Shown one piece after another: positions 22,911-46,752 of a stretch of DNA of 64,000 bases. Under the pieces are notes generated by a model. The model saw only the letters and a program-made list of their open reading frames with translations. It did not search any database and was not told the DNA's origin. Position 1 is the stretch's first letter. Every line of letters starts with the position of its first letter. Position numbers and translations under genes: made by a program. Source of the stretch: Patescibacteria group bacterium (GTDB lineage: Bacteria; Patescibacteriota; Patescibacteriia; UBA9570); contig JBAZWO010000002.1 of the NCBI GenBank assembly GCA_041660305.1, positions 132,739 through 196,738 of the forward strand, read 5' to 3'.

Positions 22911-22987
22911 GGATGCATAGCTCAGCTGGTTAGAGCGTACGATTCACATTCGTAAGGTCAGTGGTTCGAGCCCACTTGCGTCCACCA
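22911..22987 (+). tRNA. tRNA-Val (anticodon CAC), CCA encoded
   Basis: Manual cloverleaf. Acceptor GGATGCA/TGCGTCC, D arm GCTC-AGCTGGTTA-GAGC, anticodon arm TACGA-TT-CAC-AT-TCGTA, T arm AGTGG-TTCGAGC-CCACT, ACCA tail. Confidence 0.9.
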
Positions 22988-23047: not shown

Positions 23048-23077
23048 TTGACAAGAGCATAGTTCCTATGCTAATAT
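23048..23077 (+). promoter_or_regulatory. sigma70-like promoter (TTGACA-18-TAATAT) of an orphan ~120-nt transcription unit
   Basis: TTGACA 23048-23053, TAATAT 23072-23077. An ATG at 23084 opens a 23-codon ORF. Terminator at 23184-23206. Confidence 0.4.
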
Positions 23078-23183
23078 AAACATATGAATTTTTTAATTAA
23101 ATTTTCCGCAAACTACTATTACACCCGCCTAGTGGGACGGTCTTCTTTTTGCTAATTGATTCATTGAAACCAAGCACAAAATG

Positions 23184-23206
23184 ACCGCCCACGAGGCGGT
23201 TTTTTT
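23184..23206 (+). terminator. rho-independent terminator
   Basis: ACCGCC-cacga-GGCGGT followed by T7. Confidence 0.7.
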
Positions 23207-23333
23207 GTCTATTAACTCTAAATTTATGATTAAAAAAACTTTTCAAAAAAATAATGTTTATTACTACGGCTCTTTGCAAGAGACTTGTTTCAAGGTGCCG
23301 AAGTAATTTTTTCTAACATTTCGACTCCTCCAA

Positions 23334-23360
23334 CTGGTCTCTTGCGAGACCAGTTTTTTT
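23334..23360 (+). terminator. rho-independent terminator (no annotated gene upstream)
   Basis: CTGGTCTC-ttgc-GAGACCAG followed by T7. Confidence 0.7.
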
Positions 23361-23467
23361 GTTCTTTTCGGCGGAGTTTGTGAAAACTTCTAAAAAAATT
23401 ATCAGGTGAAGGAATCTACCTAGCAAGTGATTCCAAAGAAGTTCTTTGAAAACAAAAAGGAGAAAAA

Positions 23468-23941
23468 ATGAAAGCGTTGATTCTACACGTGAACCGATGG
23501 GCGTCGAGAGCAGAAAGTCCGTCGGAGAGAATTGGGGACTGCGAACCCGAAACTATTCCACAAGAAGTCGCCGGTTACGATGACACTGGCGAGGGTTCGC
23601 CTCATCTGGACCAACGATTTGTCGTTCAAGAGACGGAGTGTCTGGTCATCTTTTTCCAAGTCGAAAAGGACGATACAGAGAAACAAGTACGTCTTCTCTG
23701 TAAGGACATTCCAAAAATCGCCGTCAAGGTTGGGACGAAATGCCTCGTGGTTGAATGCTTCGCGCATCTTAGTCATAGCCGACCCGACCCAATAGTGGCA
23801 AAACGACTCGTCGAGCAAGTCCTCAAGATTTGTCGAAACTTCGAAGGCTACACGGTAAAAACTTCCCCTTTTGGTTGGAACAAGGGGCTAGAACTGGACG
23901 TGAAAGGTCACCCCGATGCGTTCAAGCACCGGAGTTATTAG
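23468..23941 (+). CDS. stand-alone archaeal-type ThrRS editing-domain-like protein (tRNA-Thr_ED / DTD-like fold)
   Basis: 157 aa. Motifs ECLVIFFQVEKDD, VVECFAHLSHSRPDP and SPFGWNKGLELDVKGHPDAF parallel the Pyrococcus ThrRS N-terminal editing domain as I remember it. Strong SD (AAAGGAGA) 7 nt upstream. Visibly higher G+C than neighbouring genes. Confidence 0.6.
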   Translation: MKALILHVNRWASRAESPSERIGDCEPETIPQEVAGYDDTGEGSPHLDQRFVVQETECLVIFFQVEKDDTEKQVRLLCKDIPKIAVKVGTKCLVVECFAHLSHSRPDPIVAKRLVEQVLKICRNFEGYTVKTSPFGWNKGLELDVKGHPDAFKHRSY

Positions 23942-23980
23942 TTCTGTTCGCAAGGCAAGAAAGGGCCAAACCTTTCACAA

Positions 23981-24021
23981 ACGAGCAACATCCGAAAGGA
24001 GGAAGAGTTGCTCGTTTTTTT
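23981..24021 (+). terminator. rho-independent terminator of the ThrRS-ED-like gene, abutting the racemase stop
   Basis: ACGAGCAAC...GTTGCTCGT (9-bp stem, inner TCC-GAAA-GGA) followed by T7. Confidence 0.7.
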
Positions 24022-24709
24022 ATTTGAAAATTTCCTCAACAGTCGCGTCATAAAATATTTTCATCGTATCGAATATTTTAAGGTTTTGATGACTAGGAAT
24101 CAGAAGCTGTAAATCAGTGCAAGCCAAAATGACACAATCCAAACCTTTGTTTTCAAAGTCATTGATAATACTTATCAATTCCTCGCGGTCTTGATTTTTA
24201 TGTTGTCCAACTACAAGGTTTAAAATAAACTTACCCATTCTTGCCTGCTGAAGTTCGTTTGGAACGACATACTCAATTCCATTTTCCGCAAAAGAATTTT
24301 CGTAAAGTTTATTTTTAATCGTTGCCGAAGTCGAAACAATTCCGACTTTATTCATTCCTTCTTTTTTCAAAAACTTAACAGTTTCTTCAACAATGCTTAA
24401 AACCGGAACGGAAACAGATTTTCTAATCTGTTCTATAAAGACATGGAGCGAATTACAAGGTATGACGATAAAATCTGCCCCTGCTTTTTCAAGTCTTTGA
24501 GCTTCTGCTGTGAGATATGGAATATATCGCTCCATGCCCTCACTTTTCAAAATTAAATCTTCCTCGATTTTGTATGGTAGCGGAACACTAGCAATAACAA
24601 TTGCTGGTCTAGCTGTTTTGTCTTTTTTAGCACACGAAAAAACCAAATCGAGGTAAAACTCGGAAGTTGTTTCTGGTCCAAGTCCGCCAATAATGCCTAC
24701 TGTTTTCAT
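24020..24709 (-). CDS. aspartate/glutamate-family amino-acid racemase (aspartate racemase-like)
   Basis: IGGLGPETT N-terminal motif. Two catalytic Cys motifs, IPCNSLH and LACTDL. Confidence 0.85.
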   Translation of the reverse strand: MKTVGIIGGLGPETTSEFYLDLVFSCAKKDKTARPAIVIASVPLPYKIEEDLILKSEGMERYIPYLTAEAQRLEKAGADFIVIPCNSLHVFIEQIRKSVSVPVLSIVEETVKFLKKEGMNKVGIVSTSATIKNKLYENSFAENGIEYVVPNELQQARMGKFILNLVVGQHKNQDREELISIINDFENKGLDCVILACTDLQLLIPSHQNLKIFDTMKIFYDATVEEIFK

Positions 24710-24768
24710 AGCAAAATCATTTTATCATAAAATCATTCTTTTTAGTAGTTTTTTCTAGTTGCCTGCCC

Positions 24769-24984
24769 TTCCAAAAAAAGAAAAGCCGAAGCCCGCGCGG
24801 ATTTCTCCCCATACCCCTCCTCCGCGCGGGCGAGTCCATCACTCCGCCTCATTAACCCCCAGAAAATTAGTGGCGGAGTGCGTATTGCGGTTTTCCCCGC
24901 ACTTTCCATTTTGGAAAAGCTCTGTGCTTCGCACAGAGGCGCGTAGCGCGCGTGGAAACGCTAGTCCTTTAATTTTTGCTGGAA
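24769..24984. ncRNA. GC-rich multi-hairpin element, candidate structured RNA of unknown class
   Basis: Hairpins at 24791-24831 (11-bp GC stem), 24840-24880 (CACTCCGCC/GGCGGAGTG) and 24920-24938 (CTCTGTGC-ttc-GCACAGAG). The ends (24769-24785 and 24966-24984) are largely complementary. About two-thirds G+C in an AT-rich genome. Confidence 0.4.
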
Positions 24985-25024
24985 AAAAGTTCGCGCAAAT
25001 GCTACAATAACACCACTATAATAT

Positions 25025-44973: not shown

Positions 44974-46752
44974 ATGCCATTAACTACTCAGGCTATACGT
45001 CAAAAATATTTAGACTATTTTAAAAGTAATGGTCACGCTGTTATTAACTCGGCTAGCTTGTTGCCAGAAAATGATCCAACAGTGTTGTTTACCACGGCTG
45101 GCATGCACCCGTTAACGCCTTATTTAATGGGTGAAACGCATCCATTAGGGACGCGGTTAACTTCGTGTCAGAAATGCGTGCGCACGGGTGATATTGATGA
45201 AGTCGGCGATCGCTGGCATCTCACGTTTTTTGAAATGTTAGGCAACTGGTCGTTAGGTGATTATTTTAAAAAAGAGGCTATTAGCATGAGCTATGAGTTT
45301 TTAACGAGTAAAAATTGGTTAGGTATTAATCCAGAAAAATTATCGGTTACGGTATTTGCCGGCGATGCTGATGCTCCTAAAGATAATGAAGCCGCTACTA
45401 TCTGGCGTAATTTAGGCATCCCAGATGAGCGCATTTATTATTACGGTAAAGAACACAATTGGTGGGGGCCGGCCGGCACTACCGGGCCATGCGGGCCAGA
45501 CACTGAAATGTTTTATGATACCGGCACCGAAAAATGCAATCCACAATGCGACCCTAGTTGTTCTTGCGGCAAATATGTAGAAATTTGGAACGATGTGTTT
45601 ATGCAGTTTAACAAAAAAGCTGACGGCACTTATGAAGAGTTGAAACAAAAAAACGTCGATACCGGCATGGGACTAGAACGAGTAGCGGCTATTATTAATC
45701 AACAGGAAGATGTGTATAGTACCGATATTTTTTCACCGTTACTGCAAGCCATTCGATCTGCTAGTACAGCGCCACATGAACAAAAATCAGCTAGAATTAT
45801 TGCCGATCATGTGCGGGCAGCTGTGTTCATGATTACCGATGGCATAGCGCCGTCAAATTTAGATCAGGGCTACGTGTTGCGCCGTTTAATTCGTAGAGCG
45901 TTGCGTCATGGTAAAAAAATTGGTTTAAAACAGTTTGGCTTGCAAGATTTAGCCGACATCGTTATTCAACAATATCAAGCCTTTTATCCTGAATTAGATA
46001 CTAACAAATCAGAAATAAAGTTAGAATTAGTAAAAGAAGAAGAAAAATTTCAGCACACCTTAGTAAAAGGCGAACAGCAATTTGCTAAAATGATTGTTGG
46101 TTTAAAACCCAATGCTCAATTATCTACCGAACAGGTTTTTCATTTATATGATACTTACGGTTTTCCATTAGAATTAACCGAAGAACTGGCTAAAGAGCAT
46201 GGTTTAACAGTAGATAATACTGGTTTTACAAAGCTATTTAAACAGCATCAAGCGCAATCACGCTTAGGAGCGGAGAAAAAATTTAAAGGCGGGTTAGCCG
46301 ACGCTTCAGATATTTCTGTACGTAGCCATACTGCTACACATTTATTGCAAGCGGCTTTGCGCCAAATTTTAGGCAATCATGTTTTTCAAAAAGGTTCGAA
46401 TATTACGCCAGAGCGGATTCGCTTTGATTTTTCTCACCCACAAAAAATGACCAGCGAACAAATTAAATTAGTGGAAGATTTAGTTAACGAACAAATAAAG
46501 CGCGCTTTACCAGTTCAGCAAGACATTATGAATCTAGATGATGCTAAAACCACTGGCGCCATTGGTTTATTTTCTAGTAAATACGGTGATAAAGTAAAAG
46601 TGTACACTATTGGCGATTTTTCCAAAGAATTTTGCGGCGGGCCGCACGTAAATAACACTCGCGAAATTGGTCATTTTAAAATTATCAAAGAAGAAGCCTC
46701 TAGCGCCGGCGTGCGCCGAATTAAAGCTAAGTTATCCACAGTTTCAATTTGA
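44974..46752 (+). CDS. alaS: alanine--tRNA ligase, compact form lacking the C-Ala domain
   Basis: FTTAGMHP, CQKCVRTGD..HLTFFEMLGNWSLGDYFK, DTGMGLERV, editing-domain HTATHLL..CGGPHV. The ORF ends after 592 aa. Confidence 0.9.
   Translation: MPLTTQAIRQKYLDYFKSNGHAVINSASLLPENDPTVLFTTAGMHPLTPYLMGETHPLGTRLTSCQKCVRTGDIDEVGDRWHLTFFEMLGNWSLGDYFKKEAISMSYEFLTSKNWLGINPEKLSVTVFAGDADAPKDNEAATIWRNLGIPDERIYYYGKEHNWWGPAGTTGPCGPDTEMFYDTGTEKCNPQCDPSCSCGKYVEIWNDVFMQFNKKADGTYEELKQKNVDTGMGLERVAAIINQQEDVYSTDIFSPLLQAIRSASTAPHEQKSARIIADHVRAAVFMITDGIAPSNLDQGYVLRRLIRRALRHGKKIGLKQFGLQDLADIVIQQYQAFYPELDTNKSEIKLELVKEEEKFQHTLVKGEQQFAKMIVGLKPNAQLSTEQVFHLYDTYGFPLELTEELAKEHGLTVDNTGFTKLFKQHQAQSRLGAEKKFKGGLADASDISVRSHTATHLLQAALRQILGNHVFQKGSNITPERIRFDFSHPQKMTSEQIKLVEDLVNEQIKRALPVQQDIMNLDDAKTTGAIGLFSSKYGDKVKVYTIGDFSKEFCGGPHVNNTREIGHFKIIKEEASSAGVRRIKAKLSTVSI

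What the first reader, a model, noticed from the sequence alone, without database searches (positions are those of the whole stretch)
23468..24709. Free-standing archaeal-type ThrRS editing-domain (DTD-like fold) homologue convergent with an aspartate racemase
**Sequence match.** The 157-aa ORF follows, motif by motif, the N-terminal editing domain of Pyrococcus ThrRS (Pfam tRNA-Thr_ED) as I remember it:
- an N-terminal M.ALILH strand;
- LVIFFQVEKDD (compare LVAFISVEKVD);
- CFAHLSHSRPDP (compare PFAHLSSELAKP);
- a C-terminal SPFGWNKGLELDVKGHPDAF (compare APFGYYKAFKISCKGHPL).

**Established knowledge.**
- This domain deacylates Ser-tRNA(Thr).
- It is normally fused to archaeal ThrRS, or sits in a trans-editing ThrRS paralogue.
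- It shares its fold with D-aminoacyl-tRNA deacylase (DTD).

**What is unusual.** Here it is stand-alone, in a bacterial context, and on a foreign-looking islet. It shares its terminator region with an Asp/Glu-racemase-family gene that has both catalytic Cys motifs.

**Hypotheses (inference).**
1. It is a trans-acting proofreading factor compensating for an editing-deficient ThrRS in a reduced genome.
2. It is a DTD-like chiral proofreader coupled to D-amino-acid production by the neighbouring racemase.
Basis: partly seen in the sequence, partly recalled or inferred. Interest (0 to 1): 0.72.

Follow-up and report, generated by a model that had tools for sequence, protein, structure and literature searches.

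The report
Racemase-linked free-standing tRNA-editing domain
A small stand-alone copy of the archaeal threonyl-tRNA-synthetase proofreading domain sits next to an amino-acid racemase in a few ultra-small (Patescibacteria) bacteria, and this conserved pairing suggests an undescribed enzyme that strips racemase-made D-amino acids off tRNAs.

Summary
ORF 23468-23941 (+) is a 157-aa free-standing member of PF08915 (tRNA-Thr_ED; 78 bits). Its model superposes best on archaeal ThrRS editing domains, then on DTD. It converges on a 229-aa Asp/Glu-family racemase with both catalytic Cys motifs.

New evidence:
- The window protein belongs to a small Patescibacteria clade. In 15 of 18 informative genomic contexts it lies directly beside such a racemase. 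Three gene arrangements and two racemase lineages are involved.
- More distant 138-aa stand-alone relatives (CPR and Nanoarchaeota) lack this linkage (0 of 3 contexts).
- Exceptions and further neighbours point the same way: a glycine/D-amino-acid-oxidase-like gene, aspS (twice), trpS, murD, and a TrpR-like repressor.
- The racemase is common in Patescibacteria; the editing-domain gene is a rare add-on.
- The tRNA-A76 pocket and the His and Lys residues are invariant. The two side chains that contact the amino acid in ThrRS (Tyr120, Glu134) are replaced.
- The gene is under purifying selection, uses host-rare codons, and follows a conserved structured leader with terminators.

Best reading (about 0.4): a low-dosage, trans-acting D-aminoacyl-tRNA deacylase, probably for D-Asp, coupled to the racemase. 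Ser-tRNA(Thr) trans-editing is not excluded. No biochemistry exists, and genome-wide dtd/thrS content could not be checked.

The parts
23048..23077 (+). Promoter-like site (TTGACA-18-TAATAT with TG) about 390 nt upstream of the editing-domain ORF. An inverted repeat GCATAG-TTC-CTATGC lies between the two hexamers.
   Evidence: Consensus scan and sequence. This is a consensus match only. The conserved leader begins just downstream (ACATATGAAT, shared with the leaders of L005, L013, L014 and L031).
23084..23210 (+). Leader unit 1: a structured RNA ending in a terminator-like hairpin (23183-23201) plus a U-run.
   Evidence: Folding z=-4.07, 0 of 200 shuffles as stable. The terminator scan finds the hairpin. 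The stretch 23084-23343 is 74% identical to L001 9675-9956, although the encoded proteins are only 66% identical. A compensatory U-A to C-G change sits in the long stem between window and L001 (sequences).
23236..23362 (+). Leader unit 2: a structured RNA ending in a terminator-like hairpin (23332-23355, AACTGGTCTC..GAGACCAGTT) plus a U7 run and GTTCTTT.
   Evidence: Folding z=-4.42; terminator scan. It is conserved in L034 and L001. L034 carries a compensatory GGCCTC/GAGGCC version of the stem.
23372..23437 (+). Conserved 66-nt leader segment with two small hairpins (GGAGTTTGTGAAAACTTC; GGAATC..GATTCC) just before the ribosome-binding site.
   Evidence: It is 89% identical to L005 and about 83% identical to L034, while the proteins are 59% and 88% identical. 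Folding alone is not significant (z=-0.2). The segment is absent from L001.
23458..23462 (+). Shine-Dalgarno AGGAG, 5 nt before the ATG.
   Evidence: Sequence.
23468..23941 (+). Free-standing ThrRS-NTD-type (DTD-like fold) domain protein, 157 aa. Residues about 20-52 form a variable, low-confidence insertion carrying a DDTGEG motif.
   Evidence: - Family and fold: PF08915 at 78 bits; PDB sequence hits; AF2 model; Foldseek.
- Clade alignment with invariant F98, H100, L101, F135, G136, K139.
- dN/dS about 0.06 against L034.
- GC3 0.52, the highest of all window ORFs of at least 100 aa, with host-rare codons.
23979..24024 (.). Hairpin (11-bp stem) plus U7 between the convergent genes. It is the terminator of the editing-domain gene, and its U-tract overlaps the racemase stop codon.
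   Evidence: Folding z=-3.5 on + and -3.0 on -. It is conserved in L034.
24020..24709 (-). Asp/Glu-family amino-acid racemase (aspartate-racemase-like subfamily), 229 aa, with both catalytic Cys motifs.
   Evidence: - Family: PF01177 E=1e-39; TIGR00035 166.7 bits (cut-off 93.1); CuyB model 153 bits, below its cut-off of 190. Closest structure 1JFL, E=1e-39.
- PCN[ST]LH and LACTDL are invariant in 14 linked racemases.
- More than 120 clusters at 76% identity or above exist in Patescibacteria.

Best explanation
**Proposal.** The 157-aa protein is an accessory, trans-acting aminoacyl-tRNA deacylase. It derives from the archaeal ThrRS N-terminal editing domain (DTD-like fold) and is functionally coupled to the neighbouring Asp/Glu-type racemase.

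**Most likely mechanism.**
1. The racemase keeps a cytoplasmic pool of a D-amino acid. D-Asp is most likely; D-Glu is possible.
2. The cognate synthetase occasionally esterifies that D-amino acid to tRNA.
3. The free-standing domain, probably a homodimer like NTD and DTD, binds the 3'-terminal A76 and hydrolyses the D-aminoacyl ester by the RNA-assisted mechanism of this fold. This recycles the tRNA.
4. Because such free deacylases are harmful in excess, expression is kept low. The means are a long leader with intrinsic terminators and host-rare codons in this window, and a TrpR-like repressor in many relatives.

**Shown.**
- Family and fold.
- Retention of the A76-pocket residues and of the His and Lys.
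- Purifying selection.
- Conserved linkage to the racemase.
- A conserved structured leader and rare codons.

**Inferred.**
- tRNA deacylase activity.
- D-chirality and the identity of the amino acid.
- Dimerisation.
- The regulatory logic.
For: **Fold and active site**
- PF08915 match and NTD-like model.
- The residues equivalent to Pab-NTD Phe117/Gly118 (A76 stacking and 2'-OH binding), His83 and Lys121 are invariant over 27 stand-alone relatives. PMC4491819 and PMC3845328 name these as the functional core of the fold.
- Tyr120 becomes Asn/His/Asp and Glu134 becomes Phe/Val/Ala. Glu134 is the cross-subunit holder of the L-amino group. These changes occur in stand-alone proteins but not in fused ThrRS domains, so amino-acid recognition has changed.

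**Linkage to a racemase**
- A racemase lies directly adjacent in 15 of 18 informative contexts of the clade, against 0 of 3 for distant stand-alone relatives.
- Three arrangements occur, and two racemase lineages about 40% identical to each other, with partner swapping. Mantel r=0.44, 2 of 5000 permutations.

**Exceptions and further neighbours fit D-amino acids or aminoacylation**
- A ThiO/D-amino-acid-dehydrogenase-like FAD oxidase plus a PheS-related ligase in L005.
- ED, then a T-box, then aspS in L038.
- trpS, RAC, ED, prs, aspS on one strand in L041.
- murD and gatA in L039.

**Literature**
- E. coli AspRS charges D-Asp, and D-Asp-, D-Trp- and D-Tyr-tRNAs are the classical DTD substrates (PMC1807948).
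- Overexpressed DTD is toxic and must be tightly regulated (PMC4880308). This matches the terminator-bearing conserved leader and the rare codons.

**Selection**
- dN 0.075, dS 1.17.
Against: - There is no biochemical evidence for any member.
- The defining chiral-selection element of DTD, the cross-subunit Gly-cisPro within NxGPVT, is absent. The sequence reads KGHPDAF with no Gly-Pro dipeptide (sequence).
- The closest characterised relatives act on an L-amino acid (L-Ser-tRNAThr). Mutating Tyr120 and Glu134 does not change that specificity in vitro (PMC4491819), so their loss does not prove a new substrate.
- The racemase is very common in Patescibacteria (more than 120 clusters at 76% identity or above), while the editing-domain clade is rare (about 20 clusters). 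Most organisms with this racemase therefore manage without the protein.
- Whether carriers lack canonical dtd could not be tested.
- The racemase substrate is unknown. From the alignment, and relying on my recollection of the 1JFL active-site residues, Lys164 of P. horikoshii AspR aligns to Val.
- In the window the two genes are convergent, so they are not co-transcribed.
- A tRNA-Thr gene lies upstream of the L001 homologue. This is a weak hint towards the Thr system.
Confidence: 0.4

Rival explanations
1. It is a trans-editing factor for L-Ser-tRNA(Thr), the ancestral activity of the domain. It would supplement or replace ThrRS editing in these reduced genomes. The racemase adjacency would be a historical or regulatory accident.
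For: - The best sequence and structure matches are Ser-tRNAThr-editing NTDs.
- His83, Lys121, Phe117 and Gly118 equivalents are invariant.
- Y120A/E134A mutants of NTD keep Ser/Thr discrimination (PMC4491819), so the substitutions seen here are compatible with the old activity.
- A tRNA-Thr(UGU) gene lies about 510 bp upstream of the L001 homologue.
- CPR bacteria are known to have imported archaeal translation parts (PMC5370408).
Against: - It does not explain why 15 of 18 contexts keep a racemase next door through rearrangements and across two racemase lineages. It also does not explain the oxidase and aspS neighbours in the exceptions.
- No thrS is linked in any of about 20 contexts.
- The protein lacks any anticodon-binding domain, unlike the crenarchaeal trans-editing ThrRS-2. 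NF011500 scores 46 bits against a cut-off of 362.
- A separate, far larger group of 138-aa stand-alone relatives exists in CPR and DPANN and is a better candidate for that job.
Confidence: 0.2
2. It is an aminoacyl-tRNA deacylase for another mischarged species tied to the racemase substrate or to Asp metabolism. Candidates are a non-proteinogenic L-amino acid (homoserine- or cysteate-like), or surplus Asp-tRNA(Asn)/Glu-tRNA(Gln) from the indirect pathway.
For: - The racemase scores nearly as well on the cysteate-racemase model CuyB (153 bits) as on asp_race.
- L005 carries an Ldh_2 protein resembling sulfolactate dehydrogenase.
- L038 links the gene to a non-discriminating-type AspRS, and L039 to gatA.
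- Precedent exists for new stand-alone deacylases against non-protein amino acids: canavanyl-tRNA deacylase (bioRxiv 10.1101/2025.05.04.652006, listed; abstract only read).
Against: - The CuyB and sulfolactate-dehydrogenase scores are below their curated cut-offs.
- Hydrolysing the obligatory Asp-tRNAAsn intermediate would be wasteful.
- None of these ideas explains the racemase link better than a D-amino-acid substrate does.
Confidence: 0.15
3. It has no tRNA-related function. The domain would have been recruited as a small-molecule or protein partner of the racemase: a D-amino-acid-binding or regulatory subunit, or a hydrolase of another aminoacyl ester.
For: - The tight, conserved adjacency to one enzyme family.
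- The altered amino-acid-contacting residues.
- A clade-specific loop with a conserved DDTGEG(P)PR motif that could be an interaction site.
Against: - The invariant positions are exactly those that hold A76 of tRNA in NTD and DTD.
- No ED-racemase fusion occurs among the multi-domain representatives checked.
- In the window and two relatives the genes are convergent rather than co-transcribed.
- aaRS genes recur nearby.
Confidence: 0.1
4. It is a recently transferred, functionless passenger or decaying gene beside a tRNA gene. The adjacency to the racemase would be chance.
For: - Atypical GC and codon usage.
- A tRNA-Val gene lies 480 bp upstream.
- The gene has a patchy distribution.
Against: - dN/dS is about 0.06 at saturated dS, with GC3 unchanged in both lineages.
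- The ORF is intact in all relatives, and the leader is conserved.
- The linkage recurs in many contexts.
- No match was found in the phage or plasmid collections.
Confidence: 0.02

Closest known systems
[quoted passage not shown]
   Same: - It has the same Pfam family and fold. Foldseek gives E about 4e-13, TM 0.74-0.83 and 24-27% identity.
- It has the same PFAHLS-like, FGxxK and KGHP motifs.
- The Phe117, Gly118, His83 and Lys121 equivalents are conserved.
   Different: - It is not fused to a synthetase.
- It is bacterial (Patescibacteria).
- Tyr120 is replaced by Asn and Glu134 by Phe; Pro80 is replaced by Cys.
- It carries a roughly 30-residue insertion after strand 1.
- It is genomically linked to a racemase, not to thrS.
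Crenarchaeal trans-editing ThrRS-2 / Ser-tRNA(Thr) hydrolase (NCBIfam NF011500; A. pernix, Sulfolobus)
   Same: It is an NTD-type domain acting, or presumed to act, in trans, separate from the catalytic ThrRS.
   Different: - ThrRS-2 is about 390 aa with a degenerate core and an anticodon-binding domain for tRNAThr.
- The window protein is the bare domain. It scores 46 bits against a cut-off of 362.
D-aminoacyl-tRNA deacylase DTD (PF02580) and its animal paralogue ATD
   Same: - It is a free-standing small protein of the same DTD-like fold (Foldseek E about 2e-6 to 1J7G/1JKE).
- The proposed activity, trans-acting removal of D-amino acids from tRNA, is that of DTD.
- The need for low dosage is shared (PMC4880308).
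   Different: - It is not a sequence member (18.7 bits, below the cut-off of 25).
- It lacks the SQFTL and NxGPVT (Gly-cisPro) motifs that define DTD enantioselectivity (PMC5802732, and the sequence).
- It descends from the NTD branch.
[quoted passage not shown]
   Same: - They are stand-alone and share the substitutions at the Tyr120 and Glu134 positions.
- They share the C-terminal F-[RK]-[YFH]-R-[ES]-[FY] ending.
   Different: - They are only 25-34% identical to the window protein.
- They form a separate branch in a neighbour-joining tree.
- They show no racemase linkage in 3 sampled contexts.
- They show no GC3 excess.
- They are also uncharacterised.

Membership tests
tRNA-Thr_ED (PF08915), archaeal ThrRS editing domain / DTD-like fold | Profile match above Pfam's gathering score | tested here: met
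   78.2 bits against a cut-off of 30.2, E=8.1e-22, profile positions 32-131 of 137.
tRNA-Thr_ED (PF08915), archaeal ThrRS editing domain / DTD-like fold | Three-dimensional fold of the solved NTDs | tested here: met
   AF2 model with pLDDT 80. Foldseek ranks 1-23 are all NTD structures, E 4e-13 to 2e-11, TM 0.73-0.86.
tRNA-Thr_ED (PF08915), archaeal ThrRS editing domain / DTD-like fold | A76-binding and catalytic-zone residues (Pab-NTD Phe81, His83, Phe117, Gly118, Lys121) | tested here: met
   F98, H100, F135, G136 and K139 are invariant in 27 stand-alone relatives and nearly so in 202. The roles of these residues come from PMC4491819 and PMC3845328.
tRNA-Thr_ED (PF08915), archaeal ThrRS editing domain / DTD-like fold | Amino-acid-contacting side chains Tyr120 and cross-subunit Glu134 | tested here: not met
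   The window protein has N138 and F152. Fused ThrRS domains have Tyr in 30 of 38 and Glu in 19 of 21 aligned sequences; stand-alone proteins have H/N/D and A/V/F. Both side chains are dispensable in vitro.
tRNA-Thr_ED (PF08915), archaeal ThrRS editing domain / DTD-like fold | Covalent fusion to a ThrRS core or anticodon-binding domain | tested here: not met
   The 157-aa ORF ends at the domain boundary. ThrRS models score 67 and 12 bits against cut-offs of 484 and 384.
tRNA-Thr_ED (PF08915), archaeal ThrRS editing domain / DTD-like fold | Hydrolysis of L-Ser-tRNA(Thr) but not L-Thr-tRNA(Thr) | not testable with these tools
   Needs a deacylation assay.
DTD (PF02580), D-aminoacyl-tRNA deacylase | Profile match above the gathering score | tested here: not met
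   18.7 bits against a cut-off of 25, with only residues 50-84 aligned.
DTD (PF02580), D-aminoacyl-tRNA deacylase | Cross-subunit Gly-cisPro within NxGPVT, and the SQFTL motif | tested here: not met
   The 157-aa sequence has no Gly-Pro dipeptide and no SQFTL. The corresponding segment reads KGHPDAF. The motifs are as given in PMC5802732.
DTD (PF02580), D-aminoacyl-tRNA deacylase | D-specific deacylation of aminoacyl-tRNAs | not testable with these tools
   This is inferred only from genomic context.
Crenarchaeal Ser-tRNA(Thr) hydrolase (NF011500) | Whole-protein equivalog score; NTD plus anticodon-binding domain | tested here: not met
   46.1 bits against a cut-off of 362, with only the NTD part aligned.
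Asp/Glu racemase superfamily (PF01177; TIGR00035 asp_race subfamily), for the neighbouring gene | Profile matches above cut-offs and two catalytic cysteines | tested here: met
   136.9 bits (cut-off 31) and 166.7 bits (cut-off 93.1). The Cys residues in PCNSLH and LACTDL align to Cys82 and Cys194 of 1JFL and are invariant in 14 linked homologues.
Asp/Glu racemase superfamily (PF01177; TIGR00035 asp_race subfamily), for the neighbouring gene | Aspartate as substrate | tested here: inconclusive
   - The best solved relative is an aspartate racemase.
- The equivalog models for cysteate, Asp/Glu and Glu racemases all score below their cut-offs.
- The position aligned to 1JFL Lys164 is Val (alignment; the role of that residue is from memory).
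- aspS is a neighbour in two relatives.

The most novel reading that the evidence does not exclude
The clade is a fourth functional branch of the DTD-like fold, after DTD, ThrRS-NTD and ATD. It would be a Patescibacteria-specific chiral proofreader that evolved from the L-Ser-specific archaeal ThrRS editing domain back to D-aminoacyl-tRNA (D-Asp/D-Glu) hydrolysis without a Gly-cisPro motif. It is genetically tethered to the racemase that creates the hazard. An attenuator-type leader RNA, rare codons and a TrpR-like repressor hold it at very low dosage.
Probability: 0.3. Interest if true: 0.8.

Novelty: new variant of a known kind. Interest (0 to 1): 0.62.

Why it matters
**For the field of translational proofreading.** The DTD-like fold is a model for RNA-assisted proofreading and for how translation enforces homochirality. 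The papers read here describe only DTD, the ThrRS NTD and the animal ATD as its functional contexts.

**What this clade would add, if its function is confirmed.**
- A free-standing NTD-type protein that is locked to an amino-acid racemase.
- A natural experiment in switching substrate chirality, or substrate identity, on this scaffold without the Gly-cisPro device.
- A possible explanation of how ultra-small Patescibacteria protect translation from the D-amino acids they make or scavenge for their cell wall.
- A case of archaeal translation parts re-used in bacteria.

**Testability.** The prediction is simple. Assay the recombinant 157-aa protein on D-Asp-, D-Glu- and D-Tyr-tRNAs against L-Ser-tRNAThr.

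**A separate lead.** The conserved leader RNAs in front of these genes are candidate new cis-regulatory elements.

Tried and rejected
- **thrS and dtd in the available DNA.** The only hit was a ProRS in L001. The genome-level test of either hypothesis was therefore impossible.
- **Overlapping or antisense gene as the cause of the GC-rich coding.** In 17 homologues no alternative frame is consistently more open than in synonymous-codon shuffles. Rejected.
- **Recent horizontal transfer as the cause of the GC anomaly.** dS against L034 is 1.17 with GC3 unchanged, and the adjacent racemase is AT-rich in every locus. Rejected.
- **ED-racemase fusion proteins.** The multi-domain representatives checked are ThrRS fragments, a tandem ED, or ED-methyltransferase fusions. 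None found.
- **Known RNA families for the leader and the GC-rich spacer.** Rfam gives only tRNAs at gathering threshold and chance-level hits at E up to 5. The leader is not a T-box by Rfam.
- **One common leader family.** A covariance model of the 136-nt 'module B' leader (L013/14/17/20/31/33) finds nothing in the window. The leaders fall into at least three sequence types.
- **Conserved partner of the generic stand-alone relatives.** Upstream ORFs in L023, L026 and L043 are unrelated.
- **Phage or plasmid carriage.** No match.
- **Literature.** No paper was found on stand-alone PF08915 proteins, on CPR DTD, or on 'SrmL'.
- **Tool failures.** The afdb50 fold library was unavailable. The search for related loci with the broad alignment failed for lack of a conserved stretch.
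Full report
**1.
- The ORF listing gives a 157-aa ORF at 23468-23941 (+) and a convergent 229-aa ORF at 24020-24709 (-).
- The first ORF has an AGGAG 5 nt before its ATG.
- It matches Pfam PF08915 (tRNA-Thr_ED) at 78.2 bits, E=8e-22, well above the gathering score. It matches DTD (PF02580) only at a sub-threshold 18.7 bits.
- NCBIfam aligns only the first about 130 positions of archaeal ThrRS and of the crenarchaeal Ser-tRNA(Thr) hydrolase, so this is the bare domain.
- Against PDB sequences, every significant hit is an archaeal ThrRS editing domain.
- An AlphaFold2 model built on ten homologues (pLDDT 80; residues 32-46 disordered) has NTD structures as its 23 best Foldseek matches in the PDB (E about 1e-12, TM 0.73-0.86). 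DTD structures follow at E about 1e-6.
- The neighbour is an Asp/Glu-family racemase (PF01177 E=1e-39; TIGR00035 166.7 bits). It is closest to Pyrococcus horikoshii aspartate racemase 1JFL, and both Cys motifs are present.
- The 78-bp spacer folds into an 11-bp hairpin followed by U7 (z=-3.5). This hairpin is conserved in a relative.

**2. Host and distribution.**
- The window is AT-rich (GC 0.354), and many of its proteins have no Pfam hit.
- The racemase is identical to an NCBI protein from a 'Patescibacteria group bacterium' MAG.
- Relatives of the 157-aa protein in reference genomes are all in Patescibacteria MAGs: Nomurabacteria, Parcubacteria, Yanofskybacteria and Saccharibacteria. One is binned as Gammaproteobacteria on a 1.9-kb contig.
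- An exhaustive profile search of 1.84 billion representatives finds 620 PF08915-like proteins. Many are about 138-aa stand-alone proteins.
- A word-indexed profile search shows that these occur in both CPR and Nanoarchaeota. NCBI names them 'threonyl-tRNA synthetase editing domain-containing protein'.
- 'Stand-alone' is therefore already recorded in databases. I found no paper about such proteins.
- In a neighbour-joining tree of 263 domain sequences, the window protein falls in a clade of 29 representatives. This clade is separate from the fused ThrRS domains and from the generic stand-alone group. No branch support was computed.

**3. Active-site signature.**
- PMC4491819 lists the residues within 6 A of the scissile bond in Pab-NTD: Pro80, Phe81, Ala82, His83, Tyr120 and Lys121, plus Glu134 from the other subunit. 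His83 and Lys121 matter for activity. Tyr120 and Glu134 contact the seryl moiety but are dispensable.
- Phe117 stacks on A76 (PMC3845328).
- In 202 stand-alone sequences the His is invariant, and the Lys, Phe and Gly are nearly invariant. Tyr120 is replaced by His/Asn/Asp, Glu134 by Ala/Val/Phe, and the next residue is basic.
- The 38 fused domains keep Tyr and Glu.
- The window protein has C97-F-A-H100, F135-G-W-N-K139 and G-H-P-D-A-F152-K-H-R.
- The tRNA-end pocket is thus retained, and the amino-acid site has been remodelled. The sequence has no Gly-Pro dipeptide, so the DTD device for chiral selection (PMC5802732) is absent.

**4. The racemase linkage is conserved.** I collected contexts by exact-protein look-ups and by scans of reference genomes and metagenomes. 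I located partners by tblastn. The contexts were then dereplicated.

*Racemase directly beside the gene:*
- Window, L034 and L001: convergent.
- L009, L010, L015, L018, L020, L032, L033 and L039: ED then RAC, 45-105 nt apart.
- L013/L035 and L031: ED, a 73-aa Cys-rich ORF, then RAC.
- L017/L041 and L036: RAC then ED.

*Exceptions:*
- L005: a PheS-related ligase, ED, a ThiO/D-amino-acid-dehydrogenase-like FAD oxidase, and an Ldh_2 protein.
- L014/L037: no racemase nearby.
- L038: see section 5.
- L016 ends at the gene and is uninformative.

*Further points:*
- This gives 15 of 18 informative contexts with an adjacent racemase.
- Three contexts of generic 138-aa relatives have no racemase.
- The linked racemases fall into two lineages about 40% identical to each other. 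Type A comprises the window, L001, L017 and L036.
- The editing-domain sequences do not follow that split. The gene has therefore been paired with racemases more than once.
- Pairwise identities of the two genes are nevertheless correlated (Mantel r=0.44; 2 of 5000 permutations reached this value).
- The racemase is a common, highly conserved Patescibacteria gene. More than 120 clusters are at least 76% identical to it, and 2407 clusters reach E<=1e-30.
- The editing-domain clade comprises only about 20 clusters at 90% identity.
- The gene is therefore a rare accessory partner of a common enzyme.

**5. Other recurrent neighbours.**
- A TrpR-family small protein (PF01371) lies just upstream in seven loci. 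Perfect 10-nt palindromes with an ACTAGT core lie next to it or in front of the leader. As I recall, that core resembles E. coli trp operators.
- L041 reads trpS, RAC, ED, prs, aspS on one strand.
- L039 reads gatA, murD (opposite strand), TrpR-like, ED, RAC, pheS.
- In L038 the gene is followed by a degenerate T-box leader and then by an archaeal-type non-discriminating AspRS. The T-box scores 37 bits, below Rfam's threshold, but carries a perfect T-box sequence.
- E. coli AspRS esterifies D-Asp to tRNAAsp. D-Asp-, D-Trp- and D-Tyr-tRNAs are the classical DTD substrates (PMC1807948).

**6. Selection, composition and regulation.**
- Against the 88%-identical L034 homologue, dN=0.075 and dS=1.17. 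This indicates strong purifying selection.
- GC3 is 0.52 in the window gene and 0.51 in L034. It is 0.44-0.69 in all clade members, whereas the adjacent racemases have 0.22-0.41.
- In the window this is the highest GC3 of any ORF of at least 100 aa.
- The gene uses codons that the host almost never uses: CTC, CTG, GTC, GAC, TTC and CGA. It contains no TTA.
- Saturated synonymous sites with unchanged GC3 argue against recent transfer. No overlapping ORF explains the bias. The bias remains unexplained, and a translational throttle is my inference.
- Upstream, the non-coding DNA is better conserved than the protein:
  - window 23084-23343 is 74% identical to L001;
  - window 23372-23437 is 89% identical to L005;
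  - other loci share 85-92% over more than 300 nt.
- In the window a promoter-like site (23048-23077) is followed by two structured units, each ending in a terminator-like hairpin (z=-4.1 and -4.4). Both stems show compensatory changes between relatives.
- A different 136-nt leader in six loci folds into a long hairpin plus a terminator, with three compensatory pairs. A covariance model of it finds no copy in the window.
- DTD is toxic when overexpressed and must be tightly regulated (PMC4880308). This offers a rationale for such layered restraint.

**7. Interpretation.**
- Most probable: a trans-acting aminoacyl-tRNA deacylase whose substrate is created by the partner racemase, that is, a D-aminoacyl-tRNA. 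D-Asp is the leading candidate. I put this at about 0.4.
- The ancestral Ser-tRNAThr activity remains possible (0.2). The substituted side chains are dispensable in vitro, a tRNA-Thr gene lies upstream of the L001 homologue, and I could not inspect thrS or dtd in carrier genomes.
- Another mischarged species (0.15) and a non-tRNA role (0.1) are less likely.
- A passenger gene is effectively excluded.

**8. Comparison and novelty.**
- The protein passes the sequence, fold and core-residue tests for PF08915.
- It fails the tests for fusion to ThrRS and for the Tyr/Glu pair.
- It is not a DTD or a ThrRS-2 by their defining features.
- It is best described as a new variant: a racemase-linked, Patescibacteria-specific subfamily of a known domain.
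- The linkage, the leader RNAs and the codon anomaly were not described in any paper I could find.

Noticed in passing
window 23084-23437; L001 9675-9956; L034 1884-2057; L005 9751-9977: The roughly 390-nt non-coding leader of the editing-domain gene is conserved at the nucleotide level (74-89%) between loci whose proteins are 59-66% identical. It contains two terminator-ended structured units with compensatory stem changes. There is no Rfam match. It is a candidate attenuator/riboswitch-like leader or a small RNA.
   Followed up: partly
L013 250-385, L031 3829-3964, L014 7833-7968, L020 4825-4960, L017 1238-1370, L033 105-241: A second, different 136-nt leader ('module B') lies in front of homologous genes.
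- It has invariant AAATACGCC...GGCGTATTT arms.
- A GGGAGCCT segment can pair either upstream or downstream; three pairs covary.
- It ends in a terminator.

This looks like a switch between two folds. It is found only in these loci by covariance-model search.
   Followed up: partly
window 23468-23941 and all clade homologues (e.g. L001 10001-10462, L020 5001-5486): The editing-domain genes keep GC3 at 0.44-0.69 and use host-rare codons. The adjacent racemases have GC3 of 0.22-0.41, whatever the host composition. dS is saturated (1.17), so this is maintained rather than a transfer scar. The cause is unknown.
   Followed up: partly
window 24740-25010: A GC-rich (0.47) 270-nt intergenic stretch lies upstream of the racemase, between it and the 25025 ORF. 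It contains five or six perfect hairpins and is strongly structured on both strands (z=-3.8 and -4.6). It occurs once in the window and has no Rfam hit.
   Followed up: partly
L009 105, L010 401, L016 7421, L018 7601, L032 2313, L036 544, L038 21: Perfect 10-nt palindromes with an ACTAGT core (ATACTAGTAT, GTACTAGTAC, GCACTAGTGC) sit beside TrpR-like genes and ED leaders. They are likely operators of the TrpR-family repressor. The window has no TrpR-like gene and no such site near the ED gene.
   Followed up: partly
L038 709-868 and 890-1945: A degenerate T-box leader lies in front of an archaeal-type non-discriminating AspRS in a CPR contig, immediately downstream of the ED gene. It scores 37 bits, below Rfam's 93-bit threshold, but has a perfect AGGGUGGCACCGCG T-box sequence. 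CPR T-boxes may be missed by the Rfam threshold.
   Followed up: partly
L005 8554-12550: A four-gene cluster:
- a 393-aa PheS catalytic domain fused to an FDX-ACB domain (mitochondrial-PheRS-like architecture; 223 bits on NCBIfam 'PheS-related mystery ligase SrmL', below cut-off);
- the ED homologue;
- a ThiO/D-amino-acid-dehydrogenase-like oxidase;
- an Ldh_2 protein resembling sulfolactate dehydrogenase.

AbiE and other defence genes lie upstream.
   Followed up: no
proteins P0130 (380 aa), P0152 (363 aa), P0023 (291 aa): P0130 and P0152 are stand-alone-type editing domains fused to a class I SAM methyltransferase. P0023 is a tandem duplication of the domain.
   Followed up: no
L013 919-1134, L031 4503-4724, L035 1042-1257: A conserved 73-aa Cys-rich (zinc-ribbon-like) ORF is inserted between the ED and racemase genes in one sub-lineage. 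It has no Pfam match.
   Followed up: no
window 44974-46752; L001 5941-7200; L041 5535-6947: Several synthetases are shortened:
- an AlaRS of 592 aa ending right after the tRNA_SAD motif (no C-Ala domain);
- a ProRS of 419 aa without the INS editing domain;
- a bacterial-type AspRS of 470 aa, matched by the model in two separate stretches, as if lacking the insertion domain.
   Followed up: no
window 22911-22987; L001 9413-9488; L039 2935-3183: tRNA genes lie 0.5-1 kb upstream of the ED gene in three loci: tRNA-Val(CAC), tRNA-Thr(UGU) and two copies of tRNA-Met. Whether this reflects insertion next to tRNA genes or co-expression is unknown.
   Followed up: no
window 23483-23818 (-): A 111-aa antisense ORF lies inside the ED gene, in the codon-aligned antisense frame. 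Comparison with synonymous shuffles in 17 homologues shows no consistent excess, so it is most likely a by-product of the GC-rich codon usage.
   Followed up: yes
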